IMG/VR virus record: IMGVR_UViG_2541047870_000005
Length of the DNA: 55,336 bases
Reading direction: 5' to 3' (one strand)
DNA from: a virus
Taxonomy: Duplodnaviria > Heunggongvirae > Uroviricota > Caudoviricetes
Positions 1 through 38,594 of this stretch are shown here, in pieces (within the stretch, counting starts at the first letter, position 1; each line of letters starts with the position of its first letter). Position numbers and translations under genes: made by a program. The notes beneath the pieces were generated by a model. It had not been told where the DNA came from and made no database searches. It was given only the letters and a program-made list of their open reading frames with translations.

Positions 1-867
1 ATGAAGTATGTCTTTATTGAAAAACATCAGGCTGAGTTCAGCATCAAAGCAATGTGCCGCGTGCTCCGGGTGGCCCGCAGCGGCTGGTATACGTGGTGTC
101 AGCGGCGGACAAGGATAAGCACGCGTCAGCAGTTCCGCCAACACTGCGACAGCGTTGTCCTCGCGGCTTTTACCCGGTCAAAACAGCGTTACGGTGCCCC
201 ACGCCTGACGGATGAACTGCGTGCTCAGGGTTACCCCTTTAACGTAAAAACCGTGGCGGCAAGCCTGCGCCGTCAGGGACTGAGGGCAAAGGCCTCCCGG
301 AAGTTCAGCCCGGTCAGCTACCGCGCACACGGCCTGCCTGTGTCAGAAAATCTGTTGGAGCAGGATTTTTACGCCAGTGGCCCGAACCAGAAGTGGGCAG
401 GAGACATCACGTACTTACGTACAGATGAAGGCTGGCTGTATCTGGCAGTGGTCATTGACCTGTGGTCACGTGCCGTTATTGGCTGGTCAATGTCGCCACG
501 CATGACGGCGCAACTGGCCTGCGATGCCCTGCAGATGGCGCTGTGGCGGCGTAAGAGGCCCCGGAACGTTATCGTTCACACGGACCGTGGAGGCCAGTAC
601 TGTTCAGCAGATTATCAGGCGCAACTGAAGCGGCATAATCTGCGTGGAAGTATGAGCGCAAAAGGTTGCTGCTACGATAATGCCTGCGTGGAAAGCTTCT
701 TTCATTCGCTGAAAGTGGAATGTATCCATGGAGAACACTTTATCAGCCGGGAAATAATGCGGGCAACGGTGTTTAATTATATCGAATGTGATTACAATCG
801 GTGGCGGCGGCACAGTTGGTGTGGCGGCCTCAGTCCGGAACAATTTGAAAACCAGAACCTCGCTTAG
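1..867 (+). CDS. IS3-family transposase OrfB (DDE catalytic domain)
   Basis: 288-aa ORF, identical to ORF 2238-3104 (-); upstream orfA lies outside the window. Confidence 0.85.
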
Positions 868-897
868 GCCTGTGTCCATATTACGTGGGTAGGATCA
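1..897 (+). mobile_element. IS3-family insertion sequence, copy 1 (partial; the window starts inside the element, only the orfB half and right terminal repeat are visible)
   Basis: ORF 1-867 is identical in translation to the orfB of the complete copy at 2238-3104; terminal sequence gtgggtaggatca ending at 897 is the reverse complement of the end of copy 2 at 2208. Confidence 0.8.
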
Positions 898-950
898 GTA
901 GGCTTTTATTCAACCTCGGGTGAAATACACATGCAGTTAAGATTTATGCA

Positions 951-2006
951 ATGTATAACAACAAAGGCGGTGTTGGAAAAACAACACTTGGTTTCAACAT
1001 TGCTGCACAGTATGCAGAAGAAAATCCCAGCACACAGGTACTAGTAATAGATTTGTGTCCGCAAGCAAACATTTCTCAATACCTGCTTGGAGGAGGTGAT
1101 CGTGGGTACAATACTAATCAAGAGCTACAATCTTCACGAACACGCAAAAATGTCGTAGGGTTTCTGGACTGGCTTTTAGATGGCCATTCAAATTTCACCA
1201 GTATTCGACGTTCTTTCAAAGTAGCAGTAAACCAATATAATGATGAAATCAGCGATAATTTGTTTCTCATCGCCGGTGATTCATTCCTCGAGTCCCTTAC
1301 TCTTGCACTGAACTATGCAGTTATCAGTCCAGCTAACAGGTTCGCATGGAAAGAGTATATGACAGCATTTCGTCGACTATGTACTCTAGAACATGATATT
1401 GATGATTACGATGATATGGTTGTCTTTATTGACTGTAATCCAAGTTTTTCTATCTACACCCAAATGGCTCTACTATCTTCAGATAGACTGGTCGTCCCTA
1501 TGATGGCTGATTACAGTTCATTAGAAGGGATGAAAGGAATAATGATGCTTCTTTATGGCCATTATCCCTCTTCTGCTGCACAAACCTATGCAGAAAAGTT
1601 TGTCACTTTTCATAGCCAAGTTGTGAATAATAATCTTACATTACCTAAGTTAGATCGCTTTGTTTTCAATAACTTTACGTCTAATCTTGGTGTTGCCAGA
1701 GCTTATGATTCAATCAAAGAATCCCTTTGTGCTTTTGCTTTTACACAATATCAGAACTTCCCAGAACTATTCACGGAGCGATATCGTGAAATCAATAACT
1801 TAAATGAATGGGAGGCGGCCTATCTTTCTGAAGTTAAAGATTTTCATACTTCAGGGAAAGTTTCTGCAAGTTTGGGAATTCCTCTTTTCAAACTTCCTGC
1901 TCAAACTCATTATGAAATGCCAAACGGTGAAATTATCAACGTTGTAAGAGAGCGTTATCGCGAGGCTAGAGAACATGTAAACGCTTTAGTAGAAACATTC
2001 TATTAA
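951..2006 (+). CDS. ParA/MinD-like P-loop ATPase (deviant Walker A KGGVGKTT), about 100-aa C-terminal extension; 5' end possibly abnormal
   Basis: N-terminus MYNNKGGVGKTT is the deviant Walker A box of the ParA/MinD/Soj superfamily; AT-rich gene; in-frame upstream codons (924-950) read KYHAVKIYA, resembling the beta-strand that normally precedes the P-loop, but no canonical start codon lies upstream. Confidence 0.65.
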   Translation: MYNNKGGVGKTTLGFNIAAQYAEENPSTQVLVIDLCPQANISQYLLGGGDRGYNTNQELQSSRTRKNVVGFLDWLLDGHSNFTSIRRSFKVAVNQYNDEISDNLFLIAGDSFLESLTLALNYAVISPANRFAWKEYMTAFRRLCTLEHDIDDYDDMVVFIDCNPSFSIYTQMALLSSDRLVVPMMADYSSLEGMKGIMMLLYGHYPSSAAQTYAEKFVTFHSQVVNNNLTLPKLDRFVFNNFTSNLGVARAYDSIKESLCAFAFTQYQNFPELFTERYREINNLNEWEAAYLSEVKDFHTSGKVSASLGIPLFKLPAQTHYEMPNGEIINVVRERYREAREHVNALVETFY

Positions 2007-2237
2007 GTGATTATATCGACCCTTGAACATAAAGTACGTTATTATTCAGTGTCTGATATTTTATATGTATTAATCATTATAAATAATGGCTGCATTTAAT
2101 TGTAGCCATTACTTTAAAACATTGTACAAATGGCAGGTGTAGTCTTTAACGCAACTCTAATGATAATCATCAATGTAAATATTCATTTATACTTTAAATG
2201 GGTAGGCTGATCCTACCCACGTAATATGGACACAGGC

Positions 2238-3104
2238 CTAAGCGAGGTTCTGGTTTTCAAATTGTTCCGGACTGAGGCCGCCACACCAACTGTGCCGCCG
2301 CCACCGATTGTAATCACATTCGATATAATTAAACACCGTTGCCCGCATTATTTCCCGGCTGATAAAGTGTTCTCCATGGATACATTCCACTTTCAGCGAA
2401 TGAAAGAAGCTTTCCACGCAGGCATTATCGTAGCAGCAACCTTTTGCGCTCATACTTCCACGCAGATTATGCCGCTTCAGTTGCGCCTGATAATCTGCTG
2501 AACAGTACTGGCCTCCACGGTCCGTGTGAACGATAACGTTCCGGGGCCTCTTACGCCGCCACAGCGCCATCTGCAGGGCATCGCAGGCCAGTTGCGCCGT
2601 CATGCGTGGCGACATTGACCAGCCAATAACGGCACGTGACCACAGGTCAATGACCACTGCCAGATACAGCCAGCCTTCATCTGTACGTAAGTACGTGATG
2701 TCTCCTGCCCACTTCTGGTTCGGGCCACTGGCGTAAAAATCCTGCTCCAACAGATTTTCTGACACAGGCAGGCCGTGTGCGCGGTAGCTGACCGGGCTGA
2801 ACTTCCGGGAGGCCTTTGCCCTCAGTCCCTGACGGCGCAGGCTTGCCGCCACGGTTTTTACGTTAAAGGGGTAACCCTGAGCACGCAGTTCATCCGTCAG
2901 GCGTGGGGCACCGTAACGCTGTTTTGACCGGGTAAAAGCCGCGAGGACAACGCTGTCGCAGTGTTGGCGGAACTGCTGACGCGTGCTTATCCTTGTCCGC
3001 CGCTGACACCACGTATACCAGCCGCTGCGGGCCACCCGGAGCACGCGGCACATTGCTTTGATGCTGAACTCAGCCTGATGTTTTTCAATAAAGACATACT
3101 TCAT
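2238..3104 (-). CDS. IS3-family transposase OrfB
   Basis: 288-aa ORF overlapping the 3' end of orfA in the -1 frame, as expected for the IS3 frameshift-fusion arrangement. Confidence 0.85.
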
Positions 3105-3406
3105 TTCAGACGATTCGCAAAGTATGTCGCGGCCTTTTGGAGGATAGCCAGTTCCTCTGCCTGCTCCGCCAGTTGCCGCTTCAGGCGGGCATTTTCAGCG
3201 GCCAGTTCACTTTCACGCTCTGACGAACTCATTTGTTGCTGCAGTTTGCTGCGCCACGCATAGAGCTGTGATTCATACAGGCTGAGTTCACGGGCTGCGG
3301 CAGCAACACCGATGCGTTCAGCAAGTTTCAGGGCTTCACTGAGAAATTCAGGCGAATGCTGTTTACGTTTTTTTACTGGTTGAAACTGTTTTGTCTTGTG
3401 AGTCAC
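3101..3406 (-). CDS. IS3-family transposase OrfA (HTH DNA-binding, leucine zipper); GTG start
   Basis: 101-aa ORF ...[38 protein letters not shown]...[16 protein letters not shown] closely resembles IS3 OrfA; the start codon at 3404-3406 is GTG on the minus strand. Confidence 0.8.
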
Positions 3407-3504
3407 CTCTGACTGAGAGTTTACTCACTTAGCCGCGTGTCCACTATTGCTGGGTAAGATCAGGCTTACAGAAAAATAAAACCTGCCGTAGCAGGTTCTC
3501 TTTC

Positions 3505-3720
3505 TTAAAAATTCATATGGCCCTGACCATCTGGCAATGGATGTGGAGGGGCTGTGGCAATCACTGCAGGTGTCACAATAAACCGGACCACTGTTTCATG
3601 GGTAACAAAAGTGCTCCCGCAGTTAATATTTTGGCACTGGCAGTAACGCTCTTTGGTGCTTTCCGTTACTTGAAAACTGCTCCTTGTGTGCGCCGCATGA
3701 CCACACTTTGGACAATTCAT
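3505..3720 (-). CDS. ogr: Ogr-type zinc-finger late-gene transcriptional activator
   Basis: CPKCGHAAHTRSS...KERYCQCQNINCGSTF matches the Ogr/Delta C2C2 zinc-finger pattern; start taken at the internal Met (MNCPKCG), the ORF track begins at 3768. Confidence 0.8.
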   Translation of the reverse strand: MNCPKCGHAAHTRSSFQVTESTKERYCQCQNINCGSTFVTHETVVRFIVTPAVIATAPPHPLPDGQGHMNF

Positions 3721-3791
3721 CATATCCAGATCCCTACCTTTGCTATCAGAATCAATGCAATGATACACAAAATATCGATATTGAGAACCAT

Positions 3792-4892
3792 TTATTCCAT
3801 TTCAAGATCATTAATTTTCACTTCAAGTTCAATACTGGTTGTAAAACCGTTATCCGGGCTGACGGTATGCGTCAGAGTCGTAATGGTCCATTCCGCATCA
3901 TCTATCGGCTGTTTAAAGCCACTGACTTTCACTGGCATTTCCGTGTAGAGATCTGCCCGCCCTTCTGCCAGTTGTAGCGAGAATGACGCAACGCCGCGTT
4001 GCAGGCGTTCCCACTGCATTTTCGCCGCTCGTTCGGCGTTGCTCCGGTTGGCATAAGTGCGATTAAGTACCAGCACGTTTTCATCCGTACCCACCAGGTA
4101 ATCGCCCTGCTTCGCTTCCGGCTCTTTCTTCTGCTTCTTAGTTCTGCGCTTACGCTTCACCGTGGTGCTTTCTTTCTTCGCAGGTTCGCGGGTATGCAAC
4201 CAGCTGGCAATTACGCCCGTGTAGGCTCCGCGATCTGCCAGGGTAAAGCGGTGACTGTCGCCGTCCTTGCGTGTGATAGTGATCACTGGCAGTGGTTTAC
4301 CAGTGGCGCTTTTGCCCTGCCCCTGCCGGATGAATAGCAGATTGCCATTTTTCACCGACGCGATGGCACCGTACTGTCGCGCCAGCCGCATCAGAAAACT
4401 GCCGTCACTCTCATTAGTCTGGTCTATATGTTCCACGGGCTTATCCGACAGGTCTTTACCCAGCGCCATCTTCAGCTTGTGACGCGCGGCTATTTCCTTT
4501 ACCACTTCCCCGACGGTGGTCTTGTGCCAAGATTTTTCACGGCGGGTATTCAGGGTTTCCCGAAAATCAGCACTTCGCGCCCGGATAGTCAGGCGGTCCG
4601 GTGCGCCAGTGTGTTCAATCTCGTCCACCGTGAATGCCCCTTTCGGGAAAAGCGGCTGCCCCTTCCAGCCCAGCGCCAGCGTAATGACCGCACCACGGCG
4701 CGGCAGCACGATTTTTCCATCGGCGTCGTCCAGCTCCAGATCAAGCTGGTCCGCTTCAAATCCCCGGTTATCCGTCAGCGTCAGCCCCATCAGGCGGTTG
4801 TCCAGCACAGTGGTGATATCCCTGCCTTCAATACTGATGCTGAATGCCGGAGTTTTGTTGCCTTTGTTAAGCAGTTCAGAGCTGAAATTCAC
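3792..4892 (-). CDS. D: P2 gpD-like tail protein (late control D)
   Basis: 366-aa ORF at the gpD position between ogr and U; size and synteny. Confidence 0.75.
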   Translation of the reverse strand: MNFSSELLNKGNKTPAFSISIEGRDITTVLDNRLMGLTLTDNRGFEADQLDLELDDADGKIVLPRRGAVITLALGWKGQPLFPKGAFTVDEIEHTGAPDRLTIRARSADFRETLNTRREKSWHKTTVGEVVKEIAARHKLKMALGKDLSDKPVEHIDQTNESDGSFLMRLARQYGAIASVKNGNLLFIRQGQGKSATGKPLPVITITRKDGDSHRFTLADRGAYTGVIASWLHTREPAKKESTTVKRKRRTKKQKKEPEAKQGDYLVGTDENVLVLNRTYANRSNAERAAKMQWERLQRGVASFSLQLAEGRADLYTEMPVKVSGFKQPIDDAEWTITTLTHTVSPDNGFTTSIELEVKINDLEME

Positions 4893-24600: not shown

Positions 24601-24627
24601 AATAGGGCAGATACTGCCCTATTTTAA
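24601..24627. terminator. Bidirectional rho-independent terminator between convergent portal gene and cargo operon
   Basis: aaaa-tagggcag-atac-ctgccctat-tttt: 8-bp stem, 4-nt loop, A-tract on one side and T-tract on the other. Confidence 0.7.
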
Positions 24628-25476
24628 CCAAATATTATAATCCAATCTTTCTACGTATCTTGAAATAACGGCTAGAGCAATTGCTTGCCCTACACTTGTT
24701 AGTTCAATTCCTTGATAGTTGCTCTTTGAAAATTTTTCTAAAAATGCAGACACATGAGGGGCAACTAACTTAAGATTTGAAATATACGCACTCTTATCTT
24801 TTATATCAGTCGGATATTTATCCATGAAATAGTCTTCAACATCTATCCCTAAAAAAGTATTCCATGAACAAGCCCCTGCATATTGAATGTGATATATCTG
24901 GGCTTGAGACAAATTAAACCCATTAGTATACATTGGTTCAAGATTTCTAAAATTGCGCTCCAACAAATCCAATCGAACACCATTAACAGGATCTTTGATC
25001 TCAACATTCTTGAGAAGAAAAACTATCGTTATAAGTGATATTTGTTGCTGTGTTAACTTTGGAACTACAGTAACTGCCTCCGTTAAAACTATATCTCTAA
25101 AATCGTCATTGTTATTGGAGACTCGTTCAACTAACAACTGAGAAAGCACATCCATATTAGCTTTCTTTCCCTTCCTGGCTGATGACTTTAATGCCTCAGT
25201 CAATGTCGCCTGAACGTCCGGATCGCAAAATTTATCAATAATCAATCTATCAACGTTTTTTGTTAAATCCGAAACGACACGCTCTTCAAAATCTTTTGCA
25301 TTCTCTTGAGCTGCAGCATAAGCAACATCTTTCAATTTTGGGAACTGATTTTCGAAGAGAATGTTGAATAGTTCTCTAACCTCGGAAAACGACATCCCTG
25401 AAACATTTACATTATTTCCAGCTTGAATTGCATACGAATTATTACCTATTTGTTGCTTTTGTTTATCACTAAACAT
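24619..25476 (-). CDS. Hypothetical 285-aa protein, AT-rich cargo between portal gene and cos-like site; second gene of a two-gene operon
   Basis: Long AT-rich ORF 9 bp downstream of the small membrane-protein gene; no recognisable motifs. Confidence 0.7.
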   Translation of the reverse strand: MFSDKQKQQIGNNSYAIQAGNNVNVSGMSFSEVRELFNILFENQFPKLKDVAYAAAQENAKDFEERVVSDLTKNVDRLIIDKFCDPDVQATLTEALKSSARKGKKANMDVLSQLLVERVSNNNDDFRDIVLTEAVTVVPKLTQQQISLITIVFLLKNVEIKDPVNGVRLDLLERNFRNLEPMYTNGFNLSQAQIYHIQYAGACSWNTFLGIDVEDYFMDKYPTDIKDKSAYISNLKLVAPHVSAFLEKFSKSNYQGIELTSVGQAIALAVISRYVERLDYNIWLK

Positions 25477-25935: not shown

Positions 25936-26138
25936 ACAGGCACTACTGAGCAATAGCGCTTGAGTTCAGTCAGATATGAGTCCTCAATGTAATACTAATA
26001 CATCTTAACCGTTCATCATTATTCACATCGGGCTATGTAATTACAGAAAAACTTTTCACAATCAATTTTATACTGGATTATTTCAGTTTATTGTATAATT
26101 CATGACGCATGCAAATTGACATTAATTCAGGAGACAAA

Positions 26139-27050
26139 ATGACATTAATTGTAGCTGGTTTCGAAAAAGATGGAACAATTGTTTTTTGCGGGGACTCACT
26201 AATAACAACAAAAGCAAATGGAAGCACTGTAAAATTGACATCGTCCTTTAGAAAAATAATACCACTAGAAATTATTGTGCGAGTACCGGAAATCGATCCA
26301 AGTGGAAAAATCATAAATTACATTGAAAGCCTTTGCCAACATCGCTGCATGATTGCATTTGCAGGAAGCACGCTAGTTTCTCAACATATTATAAATTCTA
26401 TACAAGGTCATCTGAAACAAATAAAATACACATATGATTCTGGCACATATGACTATTCAGAAGGATGCATAAAGGGTGCTGGCTATAAGTTAATAATGGG
26501 TTGTGAAGATAACAAAAGCGTTGAGGAAACCTATTGGAACGAAGATATGTTTGTTGAGCCAGTAAAGAATGCGAACGAACTTATTAATAAAAATTTTCTA
26601 CGCAACGTCTTTAGCCACTGCATACAGAAAACCATGAATGAATTTTACATTAATATTAATGAGGAATTTAATCCAGAGTGGTTTGCAAGCGATTTCATTG
26701 TAGCTCTGTCTTGCTATGAGACTAAAAAAAACCATCTTTTTACCTTTAAAATGGAATTTAATGAGTCAGGGGTCAATCTTATAGAAAAAGAAATTAATAT
26801 CAATGAACTGGCAATAATTGGCATTTCAAGATATAGCGAAGAAATAATTCAAGCATATCAAACTCAAAAAGCGACCCTCAGTACATCTGAAATTCTCAGC
26901 CAAGAGATTACTAAAGCAATCATAGACAATGAAAGCATTGATCTTAGAGAAATAGGAGATCCTGTCGTATTAAAAAAATTCAATCAACATCGTGAATTAC
27001 GTGATGAGCAAAAACACTGGAGGTGCAATACTCCTCGAGAAAACCAATAA
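26139..27050 (+). CDS. HslV/proteasome beta-subunit-like (Ntn-hydrolase fold) protein, about 303 aa, AT-rich cargo gene
   Basis: SD aggag 5 nt upstream of ATG 26139 (ORF track starts at 26109); MTLIVAGFEKDGTIVFCGDSLIT...VKL...IAFAGST...LAIIGISRYSEEIIQAY parallels HslV [21 protein letters not shown]...KK...AGFAGGT...LIAIGSGGPYAQAAARAL (recalled from memory). Confidence 0.5.
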   Translation: MTLIVAGFEKDGTIVFCGDSLITTKANGSTVKLTSSFRKIIPLEIIVRVPEIDPSGKIINYIESLCQHRCMIAFAGSTLVSQHIINSIQGHLKQIKYTYDSGTYDYSEGCIKGAGYKLIMGCEDNKSVEETYWNEDMFVEPVKNANELINKNFLRNVFSHCIQKTMNEFYININEEFNPEWFASDFIVALSCYETKKNHLFTFKMEFNESGVNLIEKEININELAIIGISRYSEEIIQAYQTQKATLSTSEILSQEITKAIIDNESIDLREIGDPVVLKKFNQHRELRDEQKHWRCNTPRENQ

Positions 27051-27464: not shown

Positions 27465-29879
27465 TTAATACAGATCCCGCCACTTATCATCTTCCTGCAA
27501 ACGCTGGTTCCGATAGAAGATACGCAGGCCTGCTCCTGACGGAATACTGCCGCCGCGAAGGAGTAAATCGACCTCTTTCTCGCTGCCATCAAATCCTCTG
27601 GACTTCAGTTCATAGACGAGCTGCTGTCGCTGATGGTCTGTAATTCGCTGTTTGTAGTCTTTACGCCGTTTCGGTTTCACCAGGCGTAACCTTGCAGCCA
27701 GTTCCCGGCGCTCTTTTTTGCTCATACTGTGCAGGTAATCGTGCAACTCCTTGTCATCCATGCGGGTAATGTCCGTTCTGGTATCCCCATCAGCTGATTT
27801 GTCTTTCCCTTGTTGGTTCAAATTTTCAGCAAGGGGACAGTTATTGCCACGAGTCCAAGGGGCGCAAGCGCCCTGGTCGGCTGCCGCCTCCTGAACGTCA
27901 ACGGCCTTACGAACCATTTTCCACTTCACCGCATGAGTGCAGATCTTGCCCTCTGCAATGGGTGACCAGATGCCATAAATACGAATACCGTGATCGCCAT
28001 AGGCGGTCGGTTCTTCGTTGATTTCATAAGCAGTTCTGATGAGGTGATATTTGCGGGGAACCAGTACGCCGCCCTGCTTCATGATGTAGGTGGCAAAACA
28101 ACCAGCATCAGCAGCAGCCAGGATTGCATCAAGGCGCGGGTTATCCAGTACCGGCGCACCTGCTTTTTTGTCCCCCTGTTGCCTTGCCGCCTGACCAGCC
28201 AGCAATCGCAGTTCACGGTAAGCCTGACGCCCCGGAATGCCAAAGAAGCGGAATTGCTGAACACGATGCAGAGACGCCCAGGCATTAACGTATTCAGCGT
28301 TATCACGCAGGGATTTACCCGTTTCCTTGCTGATCTCGCCAGCCAGACCACGCCCGTCAATGTTCTTACTGATGTATTTCGCGATGTAGCTTGTTGGCGT
28401 ACCTTTGCGCGGGTTTATCAGCTCAGACTTAAAGCGTGGTCCCGTGTTATTACCCAGCTCCTCGCGGTCTTCACGAATGGCAAACTTACGCAACAAAGCA
28501 GTAATGGTGCGGCGATCTTTTTTGCGCATAAAACACAACAGATGCCAGTGAACTGTACCGTCATGATGCGGCTCAGCCACCCGCACGCCATACCAGCGCA
28601 ATCCGGCTTTGTGCATCGCCTTACGAAATGCAGCAAACATGCCGACCAGATAATCACTGCTTTGTCTTACCGTCGCATTTGTCCAGGTCGGGTTGGGCCT
28701 GCCGTTATTTAGCGTGGAATGGAAACGTGACGGACAGGTGATGGTGTAGAAAACGGCGCAGTCACCGCGCATTTCCGCGATAAGCTCCAGACCTTTAACA
28801 CAGGCCATCATCTCATTGCGGCGATGCGCAGGGTTGCTGCTGCTGGCGTTTACCACATCCTCCATGTCCAGCGTGTCGCCGTCTTCGTTCACCAGTTCAT
28901 GAGAACGGAAAAACTCCAGTGACTTGCGGCGCTGCTCACGTTTATGCATCACGGCTTCATAGCTGACATAGGGAGATGCTTTTTTGCTGACCAGGCAAAC
29001 AGCACGCAACTGCTCTTCCCGCCATTCGCAACGCATCTTCCACAATTTCCGATACCACCAGTCGGCGCACAGCATACGCGCCAGCGACCCCGGAATGAGT
29101 TCATAGGGCACGGGTTTACGGCGGTTTCTTTTCCGGCGGAGTTGCTCAAACGCAGGCGGTATGACATCCAGTCGCAGGGTTTCTGCTGCCACCTTTTCCC
29201 ATGTCTTGCGGATTTCTTCTGGCTTAACATCATCGGTGGCATACAAATCGCCACAAGCAGCATCAAGGCACATGCTCATATGCGCAGCTACCAAGGTGGA
29301 CAGGCGTTTCACCTGATCCTGACTCATTTCAGGCAGAATCAGCAGGCCATCCAGCCCTTCATGGCTTGCCATAAAGCGAAAAGAAGTGGATAGCTGACTG
29401 TCGCGTACATGCTCCAGCCGTTCCAGACATGGCTTAATCGTCTCACGCAAATAGCGGGAATAAGCCTTTGGCCTGCCCAGGCTGCTGAAGTATTCAATAC
29501 GTTGCATCAGCGGCTTGCTGATATGGGAAGGCTGGGCGTTAACGTCCGCCAGAATGACCATGTCTGGATTAAAACGCTGCTGCTCATGCGCCAGCTTTGC
29601 CCAGCTAATGAGCTTATCCTGCTCCATTTCGCGTTGGACAGGATCACGGGATTCATTAAAGAAATAACGCTCCCAGACCTGAGCACTCAGTGCCTCGCGG
29701 CGCAGCTGTTCCTGCTCGTTATCGGCAGCGTACAGAGTGATCAGGTTTGAAAGCGCAGAAACCGGCGCGACTTCCGCCGGGTCCAGATAAGGGTTAATGG
29801 CCTTTTTCGGGCTGTTCCATGAGAATGCTGCGGCGGCCTCGTTAAAGCCGCTGCAGTTGTTCATATCAGCATGGCTCAT
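27465..29879 (-). CDS. A: Replication initiation protein gpA-like (rolling-circle endonuclease)
   Basis: 804-aa ORF in the position of P2/186 A; contains YIAKYISK-type tyrosine motif. Confidence 0.8.
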
Positions 29880-33210: not shown

Positions 33211-33855
33211 ATGGAGTATTTGATGATCAACATTCAGGCAGGTCCCAATACGGGAGGTAGAGAGGCGATCGAAAGATTGCTTAAGGCATATGGATTCAGC
33301 ACCAAACAAGCACTAGCTGACCATTTAAAAATTTCAAAAAGCACTATGGCAAACAGAAACTTACGAGATAGCTTTCCTGCTGAGTGGGTCATCCAGTGTG
33401 CACTTGAAACAGGGGTTTCGCTGCTATGGCTAGCCACAGGCCAGGGTGAAATGTTCACTTCAGAAGATCGAGAAAAAAATCCCGTAAACGAGTCAAACGT
33501 CACGCTTCGACCACTTTCCAAAATCGTTGCCCCCAGCATTAAGCAAGCCGAATTGAAGAATGGGGAGTTGAATAACGAAGGGGAAGTCTTGCTTGATAGC
33601 AGCTTACTGGACAGTGAGCCCGGCAATTCATTGTTTATAAAAACGTCTACTGACTGCTTTGTAGTGGATATATCTGTCAAACAGGTTAGCAATGGTTACT
33701 GGCTTGTCGATATTGATGGGGTGAAAAGCATCGTCAAGATTGCCCGAATACCAGGCAACAGAATTGTTGTTCACCAGGACGACTCATCCTTTGAGTGTTC
33801 TGTTGATGATGTGGAAGTTGTCGGGCGAGCCATTAAAGTAATCAAGAGTATTTAG
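33211..33855 (+). CDS. cI: CI-type immunity repressor (186-like, N-terminal HTH plus C-terminal domain)
   Basis: 214-aa ORF upstream of int, HTH motif STKQALADHLKISKSTMANR; true start may be the Met at 33223. Confidence 0.75.
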   Translation: MEYLMINIQAGPNTGGREAIERLLKAYGFSTKQALADHLKISKSTMANRNLRDSFPAEWVIQCALETGVSLLWLATGQGEMFTSEDREKNPVNESNVTLRPLSKIVAPSIKQAELKNGELNNEGEVLLDSSLLDSEPGNSLFIKTSTDCFVVDISVKQVSNGYWLVDIDGVKSIVKIARIPGNRIVVHQDDSSFECSVDDVEVVGRAIKVIKSI

Positions 33856-33857
33856 TC

Positions 33858-34877
33858 ATGACCATCAGGAAACAGCCGAACGGAAAATGGTTGTGTGAGT
33901 GCTACCCTAACGGGCGGGACGGCAAGCGCGTGCGCAAGCAATTTGCGACGAAAGGCGAAGCCGTAGCATTCGAAAACTTCACCATGGATGAAGTAAACAA
34001 AAAACCATGGCTGGGGGAAAAGGAAGATCGGCGGCATCTGTCAGAAGTGATAGAGCAATGGCACTCACTATACGGGCAGACGCTCGCAGACCCCAAACGC
34101 CTGATGGCGAAACTTAGAATTATCTGTAATGGCCTGGGCGACCCTATCGCCTCAGAGCTGACCGCCGGAGATTTTACGAAATACCGTGAAGCGCGATTAA
34201 AAGGTGAAGTGCGAAATGAAGATGGCGCGCTTATGTCGCCAGTTAAGCCCCGAACGGTAAACCTCGAACAACGCAACCTATCATCAGTTTTTGGGACTCT
34301 GAAAAAACTGGGCCACTGGTCAGCCCCTAACCCGCTCGCCGGTCTGCCAACATTCAAAATCGCAGAGGGTGAACTGGCATTCCTGACCCCAGAAGAAATT
34401 AAACGCCTGCTGGATGCCTGCGCGGATTCTCAAAGCCCCAGCCTGCTGATGATTGCAAAAATATGCCTAGCTACTGGTGCGCGGTGGAGTGAAGCAGAAA
34501 ACCTGCAGGGCCATCAGTTATCAAAATACCGCATCACTTATACCAAGACGAAGGGCAAGAAAAACCGTACCGTGCCGATATCTCAGGATCTGTATGACGA
34601 ACTCCCCAAGAACAGAGGGAAGTTATTCACCCCATGCAGAAAAGCTTTTGAGCGTGCAGTTAAACGAGCTGGTATCGACTTGCCAGAGGGACAATGTACC
34701 CACGTCTTGCGCCATACATTCGCCAGTTACTTTATGATGAATGGAGGGAATATTCTTGTACTAAGAGATATTTTAGGCCATTCAGATATAAAAATGACTA
34801 TGGTCTATTCTCATTTTTCACCTGAGCATCTTGAAGATGCTGTAACAAAAAACCCTTTATCATCACTAGCGATTTAA
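33858..34877 (+). CDS. int: Tyrosine integrase (P2/186 Int family)
   Basis: 339-aa ORF after cI; C-terminal catalytic-region motifs (HVLRHTFAS, LGHSDIKMTMVYSH). Confidence 0.85.
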   Translation: MTIRKQPNGKWLCECYPNGRDGKRVRKQFATKGEAVAFENFTMDEVNKKPWLGEKEDRRHLSEVIEQWHSLYGQTLADPKRLMAKLRIICNGLGDPIASELTAGDFTKYREARLKGEVRNEDGALMSPVKPRTVNLEQRNLSSVFGTLKKLGHWSAPNPLAGLPTFKIAEGELAFLTPEEIKRLLDACADSQSPSLLMIAKICLATGARWSEAENLQGHQLSKYRITYTKTKGKKNRTVPISQDLYDELPKNRGKLFTPCRKAFERAVKRAGIDLPEGQCTHVLRHTFASYFMMNGGNILVLRDILGHSDIKMTMVYSHFSPEHLEDAVTKNPLSSLAI

Positions 34878-34881
34878 CATA

Positions 34882-36093
34882 ATGAAAATTAATAAAATTA
34901 GTACCACAGATTATGTAGCAATGCTTAATGAAATATTATTCGAAATAGAGTCCAAACCACTATTACAAGCTCCTTATCTCGCGGGAAATAATATCATTAA
35001 AGATTTTAACAATAGGGTTAAATGTTACCTAGAAGTCATAAACAAGATTTACAGTAAAAACCCTCACAACCTTGTAATTCGTGAAATAAAATCAAAAATA
35101 AAAAGCACAAAAACACTCTCGGATAAAATTTCAGAAACACTTAGATTATATTTAAACGGTAAAATCAAAGAATCTTACCTAACATTTGATCACGCTATCA
35201 CCAAGACAAATATAAATGACCACATCTATAATATGTCCGTTCCATTAAGTGTATTTTGTCATCCTGGAAAACCTCTATTTCGCGTAAGAAAAAGCGATCA
35301 AATAATAAAAGAAAGGCGTGATATCTTTCATATTCCTTTTTCTAAACGTTATCTTGTGAATGCACAAAGATACTCAGTCTCAGGCCTTCCTTGTTTATAT
35401 TTAGGAACCTCTATTTTTGTATGTTGGCAAGAAATGGAAAAACCAGACTTTGATAAATTATATGTATCTTCATTCATCACAGAGTCTGGTTCATCACATA
35501 GAATACTTAACCTTGGTTATAATTTGAGATCAGCATTGAACATAAACACCTTAGCATGGCTGTTAGATAATGATACTGAAGGAACTATGAATAGGGTCAT
35601 TTCGAACTTAATTTCCTGGCCACTTGTGTTAGCCTGTAATTATACAAAACAACATAAAAACTCTAGTTTCAACCCTGAGTACATAATCCCCAACCTTCTT
35701 ATGCAATGGCTCAGCAGCAATGAAAATAAGGGCATAGCCGGTATCGCTTATCGCACGACTAAAATTCTCAATCAAAAAGATAGTGATATTGGTATTAATA
35801 TAATCATGCCACCTAAAATGGATAATATTTTGGATTCTGGTTATGATTACTGCCCACACTTACTAAATATATTTAAATTTACCAAACCTGTTTCATGGCA
35901 AGTATTTAGCACTTTAAACGTCAAGACCGATGGTATGGATGAAGATAGACTCATAATGGGAGGACCAACTCCAGCATCAGGTACAATTGAAGATTTTGAT
36001 GAATCGCTAGTGGAATATTACAATAATACCTCATTCAAAAAAGTTCAATTGTTAATTCATAAAATGATGAAGCATGATTATCTTGAGCCTTAA
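34882..36093 (+). CDS. RES-domain-like protein (403 aa) with about 150-aa N-terminal extension; AT-rich cargo
   Basis: Segment RYSVSGLPCLYLGTSIFVCWQE reproduces the spacing of the RES-domain core (R-W-N-x-P-G-x-P-x-L-Y-x-x-x-S...E) as I recall the consensus. Confidence 0.5.
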   Translation: MKINKISTTDYVAMLNEILFEIESKPLLQAPYLAGNNIIKDFNNRVKCYLEVINKIYSKNPHNLVIREIKSKIKSTKTLSDKISETLRLYLNGKIKESYLTFDHAITKTNINDHIYNMSVPLSVFCHPGKPLFRVRKSDQIIKERRDIFHIPFSKRYLVNAQRYSVSGLPCLYLGTSIFVCWQEMEKPDFDKLYVSSFITESGSSHRILNLGYNLRSALNINTLAWLLDNDTEGTMNRVISNLISWPLVLACNYTKQHKNSSFNPEYIIPNLLMQWLSSNENKGIAGIAYRTTKILNQKDSDIGINIIMPPKMDNILDSGYDYCPHLLNIFKFTKPVSWQVFSTLNVKTDGMDEDRLIMGGPTPASGTIEDFDESLVEYYNNTSFKKVQLLIHKMMKHDYLEP

Positions 36094-36126: not shown

Positions 36127-37080
36127 ATGCAGTTACAAAAAACCTCTAACTCCATTATAGAAATAGGAAGTGATCTGATGAATAACATCATCTATACAAA
36201 CGAACAATATGAAATCGAAAATCTAAGTATAGCCCTGTATGCAATTTTCGATAAAATAAAAGAAAGGATTTCCATCGCCGAAGAATCTAACATTTACACT
36301 ATCAGAGATGTTGGTCATAACTCGGAATCTCAAGTTTGCAAAAACACTTTTAATAAATTAACGCAATTTTTTGATTCAAACATTCTTTACATCCAAGACT
36401 GTGAAGTCTTAATTTCATATATAACAGAGTGTAGTTTGGAACTCTCTGTTATAGCGCAACAATTTTATGAAATACTCTGGAGCGATTTGTTAATAACCAC
36501 ACCAGACAAAGATTTTAAAGGGATTTTAGTAGCAAAATCGCCAAAAACAAGCTTGCTATTTTCTTTGTTAAGCATGCTATTTATAAAAATGAATAGTTTG
36601 TTTGACTACGTTACTAAAATCTCCTTTGAATTATTAAAGAGTAACTTCCCAATCTCTAAATACAAGAAATTAATATCCAAAAATAAATTATACGGCAACT
36701 ATAAAGAATTAGTTTTTTCGACAACAACGGATACCATATTTGAAAATAGCAATTTTATAAACACTGTAACATCATTACGAAATCATATAATTCACCACGG
36801 TTATATAGATGAGCACCCAAAGGTATATGTTGAAGTGGAAAATGGCATTGCATTTGGGAGATTTGTACTATTCCCCGATTTGAATGAGAGTGGAGGACTG
36901 GAAAATTGCATTAACAGAACTTTATTCTATTCAAAAGAAACAAAGATTGATGAAAAATTACCTGACTTAATTAAGGAATGCCAAATTAAAGTAATTAACT
37001 CGTTGAAGGTACTAATTAAAGATCATGAAGCATTAGAAGATTCAAGAAAGACTGGCGGCACTTTGGCGGCAGAGCATTAA
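36127..37080 (+). CDS. Hypothetical 317-aa protein with HEPN-like Rx4H motif (Abi-like candidate); AT-rich cargo
   Basis: Motif LRNHIIHHGY; gene lies 33 bp downstream of the RES-like gene on the same strand. Confidence 0.45.
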   Translation: MQLQKTSNSIIEIGSDLMNNIIYTNEQYEIENLSIALYAIFDKIKERISIAEESNIYTIRDVGHNSESQVCKNTFNKLTQFFDSNILYIQDCEVLISYITECSLELSVIAQQFYEILWSDLLITTPDKDFKGILVAKSPKTSLLFSLLSMLFIKMNSLFDYVTKISFELLKSNFPISKYKKLISKNKLYGNYKELVFSTTTDTIFENSNFINTVTSLRNHIIHHGYIDEHPKVYVEVENGIAFGRFVLFPDLNESGGLENCINRTLFYSKETKIDEKLPDLIKECQIKVINSLKVLIKDHEALEDSRKTGGTLAAEH

Positions 37081-37165: not shown

Positions 37166-37210
37166 ATGTAGGAATTTCGGACGCGGGTTCAACTCCCGCC
37201 AGCTCCACCA
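37166..37210 (+). other. ssrA: 45-nt 3' terminal fragment of tmRNA gene ssrA ending in CCA (integration core / att copy), not a complete ssrA
   Basis: atgtaggaatttcggacgcgggttcaactcccgccagctccacca matches the E. coli ssrA 3' end; sequence upstream does not continue the ssrA match. Confidence 0.8.
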
Positions 37211-37245
37211 AATAATGATCCGGATACGTCCGGTGAAGTACAGAA

Positions 37246-37394: not shown

Positions 37395-38594
37395 GTGGCA
37401 CGGACAACACGCCCCCTGACCAACACCGAAGTTCTGCGCGCGAAAGCGTTAGAGAAGGATCTAACGCTGCATGATGGCGATGGGCTTTTCCTGATAGTGA
37501 AAACTAGCGGCAAGAAACTCTGGCGCTTTCGCTATCAACGCCCAGCAACAAAACAGCGGACTATGATGGGACTTGGTGCTTTTCCTGCCCTTTCTCTTGC
37601 TGATGCCCGAGGGTTAAGAGCAGATTACCTTGCCCTATTAGCCAACGGAATCGACCCGCAAATTCAAGCTGAAGTTGCAGAGGAACAGCAGCAAATCGCT
37701 CTGGACAGTATTTTTTCGACGGTCGCCGCTAACTGGTTCCAGCTCAAAAGCAAAAGCGTTACCCATGATTACGCTAAAGATATATGGCGTTCACTGGAAA
37801 AAGACGTATTCCCCACCATCGGGGAGATCCCTGTCCAGCAAATCAAAGCCCGAACACTGGTTGAAGCCCTTGAACCGATCAAAGCTCGTGGGGCGCTGGA
37901 GACGGTGCGCCGGTTGGTGCAGCGTGTTAACGAGATAATGATTTATGCCGTAAATACTGGTCTTATTGATGCCAATCCAGCATCAGGCATTGGAATGGCC
38001 TTTGAGAAGCCAAAAAAACAAAATATGCCTACGTTGCGCCCAGAAGAATTGCCTATGCTGATGCGTTCTCTCGTCATGTCAAATTTGTCTGTTCCGACTC
38101 GCTGCCTCATTGAGTGGCAACTCCTGACTCTAGTTCGTCCTTCTGAGGCTTCCGGTGCTAGGTGGGCTGAGCTCGATCTCGATGCAAAGCTCTGGACTAT
38201 CCCAGCTGAACGAATGAAGGCTAAGCGGGAACACATAGTCCCTCTATCTCCTCAGGCATTAGAGATTCTTGATGTGATGAAGCTAATCAGTGCCCATCGT
38301 GAACATGTTTTCCCGAGTCGGAATGACCCAAAGCAACCAATGAATAGCCAGACGGCAAATGCTGCTTTAAAAAGGATTGGATTTGGTGGTAGATTGGTTG
38401 CTCATGGATTGCGTTCAATTGCCAGCACCGCATTAAATGAAGCGGGTTTTAATGCAGATGTAATTGAGGCTGCTCTTGCACATAGTGATAAAAATGAAGT
38501 GCGCAGAGCATATAATCGTTCAACTTACCTTGAGCAACGAATAGGACTTATGAATTGGTGGGGCCAAAAAGTGTACGAGCGCAATCAATATTAG
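37395..38594 (+). CDS. P4-type tyrosine integrase (IntA-like); GTG start
   Basis: 399-aa ORF about 185 bp downstream of the ssrA core, as for intA next to ssrA in E. coli K-12; integrase-like N-terminal region. Confidence 0.85.
   Translation: MARTTRPLTNTEVLRAKALEKDLTLHDGDGLFLIVKTSGKKLWRFRYQRPATKQRTMMGLGAFPALSLADARGLRADYLALLANGIDPQIQAEVAEEQQQIALDSIFSTVAANWFQLKSKSVTHDYAKDIWRSLEKDVFPTIGEIPVQQIKARTLVEALEPIKARGALETVRRLVQRVNEIMIYAVNTGLIDANPASGIGMAFEKPKKQNMPTLRPEELPMLMRSLVMSNLSVPTRCLIEWQLLTLVRPSEASGARWAELDLDAKLWTIPAERMKAKREHIVPLSPQALEILDVMKLISAHREHVFPSRNDPKQPMNSQTANAALKRIGFGGRLVAHGLRSIASTALNEAGFNADVIEAALAHSDKNEVRRAYNRSTYLEQRIGLMNWWGQKVYERNQY

What the first reader, a model, noticed from the sequence alone, without database searches (positions are those of the whole stretch)
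951..2006. Orphan ParA/MinD-like ATPase gene boxed in by two inverted IS3 copies, with an anomalous 5' end
A 351-aa deviant-Walker-A ATPase gene lies in a 1.3-kb AT-rich segment between two identical IS3-family copies in inverted orientation, with no partner ParB-like gene. The annotated start (MYNNKGGVGKTT) leaves only four residues before the P-loop, yet the in-frame upstream codons read KYHAVKIYA, like the beta-strand that normally precedes the P-loop, and lack any canonical start before the stop at 921-923. The gene may be 5'-damaged or use a non-canonical start. Its placement is compatible with it being prophage att-proximal cargo or a stranded IS-associated passenger.
Basis: partly seen in the sequence, partly recalled or inferred. 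Interest (0 to 1): 0.5.

Follow-up and report, generated by a model that had tools for sequence, protein, structure and literature searches.

The report
Frameshifted solitary ParA-like prophage cargo gene
The gene is a broken copy (one base lost right after its start codon, and cut off from its upstream DNA by an insertion sequence) of a stand-alone ParA-type ATPase that P2/186-like prophages carry as cargo next to their attachment site. Its nearest studied relative is a single-gene anti-phage protein, so it is most likely a decayed phage-defence gene, not a plasmid-partition gene.

Summary
ORF 951-2006 (351 aa, KGGVGKT P-loop) lies in a 1310-bp AT-rich segment (898-2207, 37% GC) between two IS3 copies that are identical over the 897 bp that can be compared. 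The odd 5' end has a simple cause. IS-free E. coli relatives carry the same segment between ssrA and ogr of a P2/186-like prophage and encode 358 aa starting MAVKIYAMYNNKGGVGKT. The window has lost one G (ATGGCA to ATGCA at 931-935), so the native ATG now opens a 37-codon dead-end frame. The surviving ORF starts at Met8 and lacks strand beta-1. The left IS3 ends 33 bp upstream of the native ATG. The right IS3 is a simple insertion with a GGC target duplication. The segment is native prophage cargo in a variable att-ogr slot, not an IS passenger. The family is uniformly about 357 aa, 55-86% identical from enterobacteria to cyanobacteria and a Bacillus, always without ParB or any conserved neighbour, and found on prophages, integrative elements and plasmids. 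It is an end-to-end homologue (hhalign E 4e-53, 340 columns) of the GiPD474 family, a Gifsy-1 single-gene anti-phage ATPase. Best reading: a pseudogenised member of a solitary ParA-like defence superfamily. The defence function and its mechanism are inferred, not shown.

The parts
1..897 (+). Left IS3 copy, cut by the window start. orfB is 1-867 and the right-end inverted repeat ends at 897.
   Evidence: 100% complementary to 2208-3104 of the right copy; orfB translation. It ends 33 bp upstream of the native ATG. In IS-free relatives position 898 is contiguous with the DNA downstream of ssrA.
898..2207 (.). AT-rich cargo segment native to the prophage: the right-hand part of a variable att-ogr slot.
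   Evidence: 99.7% identical to three IS-free E. coli chromosomes, with only 4 differences. GC is 0.369 against 0.502 for the prophage. The slot boundaries are defined by conserved arms shared with strain D3, which carries a different cargo gene.
931..1044 (+). Native start codon (931-933) followed by the 1-bp deletion (one G of ATGGCA lost). It now opens a 37-codon out-of-frame ORF, MQLRF...HRY*.
   Evidence: Alignment with L001 and L002, difference list, translation.
951..2006 (+). Residual 351-aa ORF of the solitary ParA-like ATPase. It starts at Met8 of the 358-aa protein and lacks strand beta-1.
   Evidence: The AF2 model places beta-1 at residues 3-8. Apart from the deletion, the coding sequence does not differ from the intact alleles.
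2085..2110 (+). Hairpin downstream of the gene (AATGGCTGCA-tttaat-TGTAGCCATT). It is a possible terminator and has no clear T-run.
   Evidence: Read from the sequence. The stem is perfect in L001 (I1). The terminator scan did not call it.
2205..2207 (.). Left copy of the 3-bp target duplication (GGC) of the right IS3.
   Evidence: The IS-free sequence reads ...aaatggataGGCttacag.... The window reads ...gtaGGC[IS3]GGCttacag.
2208..3462 (-). Right IS3 copy, complete (orfA 3101-3406, orfB 2238-3104 on the minus strand). It was inserted at the cargo/ogr-arm boundary.
   Evidence: The boundary comes (the conserved arm starts at L001 9315, directly after GGC).
3463..3465 (.). Right copy of the GGC target duplication.
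3505..3768 (-). ogr/Delta zinc-finger late activator. This is the first conserved prophage gene after the cargo slot.
   Evidence: Pfam Ogr_Delta 1.4e-20. Annotated as ogr in relatives.
33211..34877 (+). 186-type CI repressor (33211-33855) and integrase (33858-34877). They have the same orientation as the ParA-like gene on the circular phage map.
   Evidence: Pfam Phage_CI_repr and Phage_CI_C, Int_N and Phage_integrase.
37172..37215 (+). attR core: a duplicate of the 3' end of ssrA. It marks the far end of the prophage.
   Evidence: Exact 25-nt match to the ssrA 3' end, none expected by chance. A roughly 44-nt core is shared with attL of the relatives.

Best explanation
What it is:
- The ORF is the remnant of a 358-aa solitary ParA/Soj-fold ATPase gene.
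- The gene is accessory cargo ('moron') in the variable slot between the attachment site and ogr of a 186/P2-like prophage integrated at ssrA.

How it is damaged in this genome:
- One G was lost directly after the start codon. Ribosomes starting at the native ATG (931) terminate after 37 codons, and the only in-frame ORF left begins at Met8 without strand beta-1 and without a good ribosome-binding site.
- An IS3 sits 33 bp upstream of the ATG and separates the gene from its native upstream region.
- A second, independent IS3 insertion sits at the downstream edge of the cargo.

Probable function of the intact protein (inferred):
- It most likely acts as a single-gene anti-phage (superinfection-exclusion or defence) factor expressed from the lysogen, like its end-to-end homologue GiPD474 of Gifsy-1.
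- Mechanistically, the invariant deviant Walker A signature lysine, the CPQ switch motif and the Walker B aspartate imply ATP-dependent sandwich dimerisation, as in ParA, Soj and MinD.
- The family-specific insert (about residues 56-110) and the C-terminal extension (about 253-358) are the candidates for sensing or obstructing an invading phage component.

Status of the claims:
- Shown: identity, location, lesions, solitary status, homology.
- Inferred: the defence function and how the ATPase cycle is used.

The confidence of 0.6 is for the whole statement. Taken alone, the structural part (prophage cargo, frameshift, independent IS3 insertions) is about 0.9, and the defence function is about 0.5.
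For: Lesion:
- Three IS-free E. coli genomes have ATGGCAGTT... where the window has ATGCAGTT... It is the only coding difference.
- All 72 aligned homologues carry the N-terminal beta-1 segment. The shorter database entries are gene-calling artefacts with an in-frame ATG and a Shine-Dalgarno sequence upstream.
- The AF2 model (pLDDT 91.6, pTM 0.92) places beta-1 at residues 3-8.

Location:
- The order is ssrA, att core, ParA-like gene, ogr, D, U, T in SCU-172, 1002W03 and MS1665.
- The att core is duplicated at window 37172-37215.
- The same slot holds a different 160-aa gene in strain D3, flanked by conserved arms.

Solitary status:
- No neighbour family is shared across 43 loci, apart from synteny within Nostocales.
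- There are no iterated repeats around the gene.

Mobile-element context of family members:
- A Pantoea integrative element with a relaxase, next to a DUF4238 gene (to my knowledge, not checked here, a lone DUF4238 gene is a described defence system).
- A Pseudomonas island with a resolvase.
- A Nostoc plasmid, between a HaeIII restriction-modification system and pPIWI-RE.
- A Morganella lambdoid prophage, between the lysis and terminase genes on the opposite strand.
- The end of a Stenotrophomonas prophage.

Homology to a tested defence gene:
- BLASTP 31% identity over 328 aa, E 1e-45. hhalign probability 100%, E 3.9e-53, 340 columns end to end.
- The target cluster matches the published GiPD474 description: 361 aa, GGVGKT at residues 29-34, S. 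Typhimurium members.
- GiPD474 gives a 5-log reduction of T4, about 5.5 logs of Alf5, and resistance to FO1 as a single gene (PMC12724215).
- GiPD474-type genes sit directly downstream of the cI repressor in Klebsiella, Pseudomonas, Salmonella and E. coli phages. This matches the published 'immunity region' location (PMC12724215) and, from my own knowledge, corresponds to where lambda carries rexAB.

Decay elsewhere: in strain Eco_23-2667 the same gene is cut by IS3.
Against: - No member of the 358-aa subfamily has been tested. At 31% identity, function need not transfer from GiPD474.
- PADLOC 2.0 has no model that hits the protein.
- Only a minority of the 130 immediate neighbours scanned were defence genes (methyltransferases, one DRT, one Cas1, pPIWI, two PDC candidates), and many were housekeeping genes. 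I made no comparison with a background rate, so guilt by association is weak.
- The GiPD474 mechanism is itself unknown.
- The 1-bp deletion could be a sequencing or assembly error, because I cannot see reads.
- The native promoter was not identified by the consensus scan. That the IS3 cuts off the promoter is therefore an inference.
Confidence: 0.6

Rival explanations
1. The gene is intact in the real genome, and the missing G is a sequencing or assembly error in a GG dinucleotide. The strain would then carry a full 358-aa gene that is merely flanked by IS3 copies.
For: The deletion is the only difference from the intact alleles within the 1077-bp gene. That fits either a very recent mutation or an error. 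Single-base indels are the commonest long-read error.
Against: GG is not a long homopolymer. The locus shows other real decay: two IS3 insertions here, and an IS3 inside the gene in another strain. The three downstream substitutions show that this is an independent lineage.
Confidence: 0.12
2. The gene is a partition or maintenance ATPase for the episomal (excised or replicating) form of the phage or other mobile element. It would act like Soj of PAPI-1/ICEclc-type islands or ParA of phage-plasmids, possibly using a host factor instead of ParB.
For: The fold and motifs are ParA/Soj. PHROG 164 'ParA-like partition protein' matches at 5.9e-40. The gene abuts att and is co-oriented with CI-int on the circular map, so read-through from the circular form is conceivable. 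Family members occur on plasmids.
Against: There is no ParB or centromere-binding gene and no repeat array next to it in any lineage. The hosts include integrated P2-like and lambdoid prophages, which have no plasmid stage. More distant homologues sit on 3.2-5 kb plasmids with no partner gene, which, from general knowledge, are usually multicopy and need no partition system. The position within elements varies: att end, the lysis/terminase gap, defence islands. All NCBIfam partition models score far below their cut-offs (42 bits against 180).
Confidence: 0.12
3. The 351-aa product made from Met8 (or by a non-canonical start or recoding) is still functional, so the gene is not a pseudogene.
For: The ORF is otherwise intact, with all catalytic motifs (K5/K10 of the short form, CPQ, DCNPS). 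Gene callers sometimes pick Met8 in other members.
Against: In those members an in-frame ATG with a Shine-Dalgarno sequence lies 7 codons upstream, so Met8 is not their real start. Position 8 is Phe in most of the family. Beta-1 (residues 3-8) is a core strand of the P-loop sheet. ATG951 lies inside the frameshifted ORF that begins at the native ATG and has no recognisable Shine-Dalgarno sequence. The IS3 displaces the upstream region.
Confidence: 0.06
4. The IS3-gene-IS3 arrangement is a composite transposon that brought the ATPase gene in as a passenger.
For: Two identical IS3 copies in inverted orientation bracket the gene.
Against: IS-free genomes carry the same 1.3-kb segment at the same place, contiguous with ssrA-side and ogr-side DNA. 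The right IS3 has its own GGC duplication, which marks a single-IS insertion. No other genomic location of the segment was found in 5426 E. coli genomes.
Confidence: 0.02

Closest known systems
GiPD474 (STM474_RS13505, WP_000368620.1), the Gifsy-1 single-gene anti-phage ParA-like ATPase of S. Typhimurium 4/74 (PMC12724215)
   Same: End-to-end homologue: hhalign 100%, E 3.9e-53, 340 columns. Similar length (358 against 361 aa). Shared motifs NNKGGVGKT, CPQ, DCNPSF and VKD. Solitary, prophage-borne, no ParB.
   Different: Only 29-31% identical. It lacks the roughly 17-residue N-terminal leader of GiPD474. It sits in the att-ogr slot of a P2/186-like phage, not downstream of cI in a lambdoid phage. 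The subfamily has a much wider range (cyanobacteria, alpha-, beta- and gamma-proteobacteria, a Bacillus). It is untested experimentally, and the copy in the window is broken.
Chromosomal and plasmid ParA/Soj partition ATPases (for example T. thermophilus Soj 2BEK, H. pylori Soj 6IUB, ParA 8RAY)
   Same: Same core fold (Foldseek E 1e-11, probability 1.0). Same deviant Walker A with the signature lysine, and Walker A' and B motifs.
   Different: About 100 extra residues: an insert at about 56-110 and a C-terminal extension. TM-score normalised to the query is only 0.44-0.57. There is no ParB partner or parS-like repeats. NCBIfam partition models score far below their cut-offs.
Lysogen-expressed prophage exclusion cargo such as lambda rexAB and P2 old, tin and fun(Z); comparison partly from my own knowledge
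   Same: An AT-rich accessory gene in a variable slot of a temperate phage. P2-like phages are known to carry defence hotspots, including minor ones next to att (PMC9122126, PMC13586616).
   Different: The proteins are unrelated. The att-ogr slot is not one of the hotspots listed in those papers: A/Q, the tail genes, int-att and int-primase.
DIP2308 of Corynebacterium diphtheriae (PDB 3PG5), an uncharacterised 361-aa ParA-like protein
   Same: A long (about 360 aa) ParA-like protein. Profile hit E 2.6e-12 and fold hit E 2e-09.
   Different: The sequence match is limited to the P-loop region. TM-scores are 0.47-0.54, no better than Soj. Its function is unknown, so it adds nothing on mechanism.

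Membership tests
ParA/MinD/Soj deviant-Walker-A ATPase superfamily | Deviant Walker A KGGxxGK[ST] with the N-terminal signature lysine | tested here: met
   KGGVGKT is invariant in 72 homologues (K12-T18 of the 358-aa form) and present in the window ORF.
ParA/MinD/Soj deviant-Walker-A ATPase superfamily | ParA/Soj alpha/beta fold with Walker A' and Walker B aspartates | tested here: met
   AF2 model with pLDDT 91.6. Foldseek top hits are Soj and ParA at E 1e-11. D41 is invariant and D168 nearly invariant.
ParABS-type partition system (type I ParA) | An adjacent ParB or centromere-binding partner gene | tested here: not met
   No partner in the window, in IS-free relatives or as a conserved neighbour in 43 loci.
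ParABS-type partition system (type I ParA) | A cis-acting centromere (repeat array) next to the operon | tested here: not met
   Only short two-copy, chance-level repeats around the gene.
ParABS-type partition system (type I ParA) | A score above the curated cut-off of a partition-ParA model | tested here: not met
   NF041546 scores 42.4 bits against a cut-off of 180. RepA and PrgP models are also far below theirs.
GiPD474-like solitary prophage ParA-like ATPases | Full-length homology, including the non-canonical insert and C-terminal region | tested here: met
   hhalign 100%, E 3.9e-53, columns 1-357 against 11-355. BLASTP E 1e-45. The identity of cluster P0138 with GiPD474 rests on length, motif position and host. 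The accession itself could not be checked.
GiPD474-like solitary prophage ParA-like ATPases | A single-gene unit on a prophage or other mobile element | tested here: met
GiPD474-like solitary prophage ParA-like ATPases | Location in the immunity region, next to the cI, cro and cII regulators | tested here: not met
   Here the gene is in the att-ogr slot. CI is about 31 kb away on the prophage map, although co-oriented with the gene across attP on the circular map.
GiPD474-like solitary prophage ParA-like ATPases | Confers phage resistance when expressed alone | not testable with these tools
   This needs plaque assays. It has been shown only for GiPD474 itself (PMC12724215).
Known defence systems in PADLOC-DB 2.0 | A match to any defence-protein HMM | tested here: not met
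   0 families at E up to 0.1.
IS3 composite transposon | The passenger segment is absent from the site in IS-free genomes, and target duplications lie outside the pair of IS copies | tested here: not met
   The segment is present in situ without IS in three genomes. The right IS3 has its own GGC duplication. The outer flank of the left IS3 lies outside the window.

The most novel reading that the evidence does not exclude
The 358-aa family is a distinct, exceptionally mobile single-gene immunity ATPase. It is 55-86% identical from E. coli to Nostoc, Pyxidicoccus and a Bacillus. It would use the ParA-type ATP-driven dimer and DNA cycle, without any partner protein, to detect or block incoming phage DNA. 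Its repeated inactivation in E. coli (a frameshift plus IS3 here, an IS3 inside the gene in Eco_23-2667) would reflect a fitness or autoimmunity cost. The att-ogr slot would then be an additional, so far unlisted, defence hotspot of ssrA-integrating P2/186-like phages.
Probability: 0.3. Interest if true: 0.6.

Novelty: new member of a known kind. Interest (0 to 1): 0.33.

Why it matters
For this window, the result is a corrected annotation. The 'ParA family protein' is a pseudogene of prophage cargo, not a partition gene and not a transposon passenger.

More widely, it points to a large, tightly conserved and widely transferred subfamily of solitary ParA-like ATPases. Their only studied relative is a recently reported single-gene anti-phage factor of unknown mechanism. 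If the subfamily also defends, ParA-type ATPases would be confirmed as stand-alone immune proteins across phyla. Intact alleles are readily available for cloning (WP_113870597.1 in E. coli SCU-172, MS1665 and 1002W03). The result would also add the att-ogr slot to the cargo hotspots of P2/186-like phages.

Tried and rejected
- PADLOC search of the protein: no hit.
- NCBIfam: only sub-threshold P-loop matches.
- Rfam on 800-3900: nothing.
- Consensus promoter scan upstream of the intact gene: no call. A TGATAAAAT extended -10-like motif at L001 7970-7978 was seen by eye only.
- Search for a conserved partner among the four genes on each side in 43 loci: none outside Nostocales synteny.
- Pfam and PADLOC scans of 130 immediate neighbours: heterogeneous, with a few integrases, resolvases and defence genes. 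This is too weak to use as proof.
- Link between the ParA-like gene and the two unknown genes on the other side of attP (orf403, orf317): rejected. They occur in 11 E. coli genomes that lack the ParA-like gene.
- Short homologues starting at Met8 as evidence for a real internal start: rejected, because they are gene-calling artefacts.
- Walker B D168N seen in cluster representative P0001: it is not present in the window or in the complete-genome alleles, so it is not a feature of this locus.
- Direct check of accession WP_000368620.1: not possible. The E. coli allele of the GiPD474 family is in 71 of 5426 genomes, but it is a different allele.
- Papers on P2/P4 hotspots (PMC9122126, PMC13586616) and on metagenomic defence selections (PMC12366544): none mentions a ParA-like system.
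Full report
**1. What is in the sequence**

ORF 951-2006 (+) encodes 351 aa beginning MYNNKGGVGKTT. It matches Pfam AAA_31 (1.4e-20) and CbiA.

It lies in a 1310-bp segment (898-2207) of 36.9% GC. The flanking IS3 DNA is 52-60% GC and the rest of the prophage is 50.2%.

The segment is bracketed by IS3 sequence in inverted orientation. Arms 1-898 and 2207-3104 are 100% complementary. The left copy is cut by the window start, so only 897 bp can be compared. The right copy (2208-3462) is complete.

The stop at 921-923 is real.

No other ORF of 60 aa or more lies in the segment. The five other ORFs listed down to 40 aa (41-50 aa) all lie inside the gene, three on the opposite strand and two on the same strand in other frames. 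No Rfam family matches 800-3900.

**2. Why the 5' end looks wrong**

The segment is rare. Only 4 of 5426 complete E. coli genomes have it.

In three of them (SCU-172, MS1665, 1002W03) it is IS-free and annotated as a 358-aa 'ParA family protein', WP_113870597.1. Alignment shows ACACATGGCAGTTAAG in the relatives and ACACATGCAGTTAAG in the window, so one G is missing.

Across the whole 1.3 kb there are four differences. This is the only one inside the gene.

The intact protein starts MAVKIYAMYNNKGGVGKT. In the window the native ATG (931) now opens a 37-codon dead-end frame. The first in-frame Met is residue 8.

All 72 aligned homologues have the 7-residue N-terminal segment, and residue 8 is Phe in most of them. 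A few database entries begin at the equivalent Met. I fetched two of them, and both have an in-frame ATG with a good Shine-Dalgarno sequence 7 codons upstream, so they are gene-calling artefacts.

An AlphaFold2 model of the family (pLDDT 91.6, pTM 0.92) places strand beta-1 at residues 3-8. The residual ORF therefore lacks a core strand of the P-loop sheet.

I cannot exclude that the missing G is a sequencing error.

**3. Where the gene belongs**

In the IS-free genomes the order is smpB, ssrA (tmRNA), 296 nt, the ParA-like gene (+), ogr (-), D, U, tape measure and so on. This is the end of a P2/186-like prophage integrated at ssrA.

The window contains the other prophage end:
- A roughly 44-nt copy of the ssrA 3' end at 37172-37215.
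- Before it, a 186-type CI (33211-33855), the integrase (33858-34877) and two unknown ORFs.

The gene therefore lies inside the prophage, between attL and ogr. On the circular phage map it follows CI-int-orf403-orf317-attP in the same orientation.

In E. coli D3, a related prophage has a different 160-aa gene in the same place. Conserved arms flank it on both sides (L001 7701-7828 and 9315-9681). The att-ogr interval is therefore a variable cargo slot.

**4. The IS3 copies are later arrivals**

The right IS3 is flanked by GGC on both sides, where the IS-free sequence has a single GGC. That is an ordinary single insertion. It sits exactly at the cargo/ogr-arm boundary.

The left IS3 ends at 897, 33 bp upstream of the native ATG, inside what is contiguous upstream DNA in the relatives. 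It therefore separates the gene from its native upstream region. That this region holds the promoter is an inference, because the consensus scan found no promoter. By eye there is a TGATAAAAT extended -10-like motif about 55 nt upstream of the ATG.

In a fourth genome (Eco_23-2667) an IS3 sits inside the same gene and the prophage beyond it is gone.

The composite-transposon-passenger idea is thus refuted, and the locus shows repeated decay.

**5. The family**

- **Conservation.** The intact protein has about 2800 relatives at E 0.001 or better in the 90%-clustered database. The top 120 are all 59-100% identical and mostly 355-362 aa long.
- **Taxonomic range.** A scan of one genome per species found 45 loci at 49% identity or more (mostly 54-73%) in gamma-, beta- and alpha-proteobacteria, many cyanobacteria, a myxobacterium, a flavobacterium and a Bacillus. 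This breadth at this identity implies horizontal transfer under strong constraint.
- **Clustering.** At 50% clustering the close family collapses to about one cluster. It sits inside a wider set of 54 (E 1e-30 or better) to 308 (E 1e-10 or better) clusters of ParA-like proteins, most of them roughly 340-370 aa.
- **Fold.** The core is ParA/Soj (Foldseek E 1e-11). About 100 extra residues form an insert at about 56-110 and a C-terminal extension. No solved structure covers these.
- **Invariant residues.** These include N10-N11-K12-GGVG-K17, D41-x-C-P-Q, P171-S172 (after D168-C-N), A193-D194 and K303-D304.

**6. Solitary, and on mobile elements**

I called ORFs in 43 loci and clustered the four neighbours on each side. 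No family recurs, except within Nostocales, which share synteny by descent. There is no repeat array near the gene.

The contexts seen were:
- A Pantoea integrative element with a relaxase and an integrase, immediately upstream of a DUF4238 gene.
- A Pseudomonas island with a resolvase.
- A Nostoc plasmid, between a HaeIII restriction-modification system and pPIWI-RE.
- A Morganella lambdoid prophage, between the lysis cassette and the terminase genes, on the opposite strand.
- The ends of Stenotrophomonas prophages.
- Next to an integrase on a metagenome contig.

Pfam and PADLOC scans of 130 immediate neighbours were heterogeneous. They found three integrases, two resolvases, two Y-family polymerases, a few methyltransferases, one DRT, one Cas1, two PDC candidates and many housekeeping genes. 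This suggests mobile or defence surroundings, but I made no comparison with a background rate and it is not strong evidence.

More distant full-length relatives (33% identity) are cargo on 3.2-5 kb Klebsiella plasmids and small Acinetobacter plasmids, with no ParB-like partner annotated.

**7. Link to a tested defence gene**

A literature search found GiPD474 (PMC12724215). It is a 361-aa protein from the immunity region of Gifsy-1 in S. Typhimurium 4/74, with a ParA/MinD/Soj-like domain and GGVGKT at residues 29-34. Expressed alone it reduces plating of T4 by 5 logs and of Alf5 by about 5.5 logs, and confers resistance to FO1. Its mechanism is unknown.

Cluster P0138 matches that description: 361 aa, GGVGKT at 29-34, S. 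Typhimurium and E. coli members. I could not check the accession itself.

The window family and the GiPD474 family align end to end:
- BLASTP: 31% identity over 328 aa, E 1e-45.
- hhalign: probability 100%, E 3.9e-53, 340 columns, 1-357 against 11-355.

The alignment includes the insert and the C-terminal region that canonical ParA proteins lack.

GiPD474-type genes lie directly downstream of the cI repressor in a Klebsiella phage, Pseudomonas phage phi297, a Salmonella phage and E. coli prophages. From my own knowledge, this is where lambda carries rexAB.

The E. coli allele of that family is in 71 of 5426 genomes. The 358-aa family is in 4.

**8. Interpretation**

- **Shown.** The gene is native cargo of a P2/186-like prophage at ssrA. 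It is solitary. It belongs to a long ParA-like superfamily that includes GiPD474. In this window it is frameshifted at codon 2 and flanked by two independent IS3 insertions.
- **Inferred.** The intact protein is a lysogen-expressed single-gene anti-phage factor. It would use ATP-dependent ParA-type dimerisation (signature lysine, Walker A' and B). Its extra elements would provide target recognition or interference.
- **Rivals.** A sequencing error; an episome-maintenance ATPase; a functional Met8 product; a composite transposon. They are weighed in the rival section. The partition reading fails on three tested defining features: partner gene, centromere and curated model scores.

**9. Novelty and score**

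The specific feature is a pseudogene, which is ordinary. The family is an untested, very widely transferred sister of a defence gene first described in 2025.

I file it as a new member of a known kind, at moderate-low interest. The upside would come if the intact alleles prove to be defensive.

Noticed in passing
window 34882-36093 and 36127-37080 (+): Two ORFs (403 aa and 317 aa) lie between the integrase and the attR core, with no Pfam or PADLOC hit. This int-att interval is a reported minor defence hotspot of P2-like phages (PMC13586616). The pair occurs at 99% identity or more in 11 of 5426 E. coli genomes, none of which has the ParA-like gene.
   Followed up: partly
window 24619-25476 (-) and 26109-27050 (+): Two ORFs (285 aa and 313 aa) lie next to replication gene A (27465-29879) and, by position (the neighbouring ORFs were not scanned), on the portal/terminase side. 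This would be the classical P2 old/tin hotspot. Neither has a Pfam or PADLOC hit, so they are candidate unknown cargo or defence genes.
   Followed up: partly
window 37395-38594 (+): A second tyrosine integrase (Arm-DNA-bind_3, Phage_int_M, Phage_integrase) starts about 180 bp after the attR core. This suggests another island integrated in tandem at ssrA.
   Followed up: no
L108 4628-5132 (E. coli D3) against L001 7829-9314: The att-ogr slot of ssrA-integrated P2/186-like prophages is variable. D3 carries an unrelated 160-aa ORF there, between arms that are about 93% identical. The right IS3 of the window sits exactly at the right boundary of this slot.
   Followed up: partly
L014 6034-7790 (E. 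coli Eco_23-2667): The same ParA-like gene is truncated at nt 567 by an IS3. The prophage beyond it is replaced by unrelated DNA that includes a 1283-aa P-loop NTPase gene. This is a second independent IS3 hit on the locus.
   Followed up: partly
L027 3981-4001 and L028 167-187: Metagenome gene calls for family members P0032 and P0040 start at the internal Met8, although an in-frame ATG with a Shine-Dalgarno sequence lies 7 codons upstream. This is a recurrent start-site miscall for the family.
   Followed up: yes
P0001 residue 168: The 90%-cluster representative closest to the E. coli protein carries Asn instead of the nearly invariant Walker B Asp (FINCNPSF against FIDCNPSF). The window and the complete-genome alleles have Asp.
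   Followed up: partly
L043, L045, L047, L049, L057, L063, L069 (Nostocales): In Nostocales the family member has a conserved opposite-strand neighbourhood (about 210 aa, about 420 aa, and 445-479 aa proteins) that is not seen in any other lineage. It was not annotated.
   Followed up: no
L001 7747-7774: The phage arm next to attL supplies a strong intrinsic terminator hairpin directly after the reconstituted ssrA 3' end. Read-through from ssrA into the cargo gene is therefore probably limited.
   Followed up: no
L016 (3.2-kb K. pneumoniae plasmid pS465MC_p6) and similar 3.2-5 kb plasmids: Full-length relatives (33% identity) of the protein are carried on very small non-mobilizable plasmids, together with DUF2251 and DUF6530 genes and without ParB.
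   Followed up: partly
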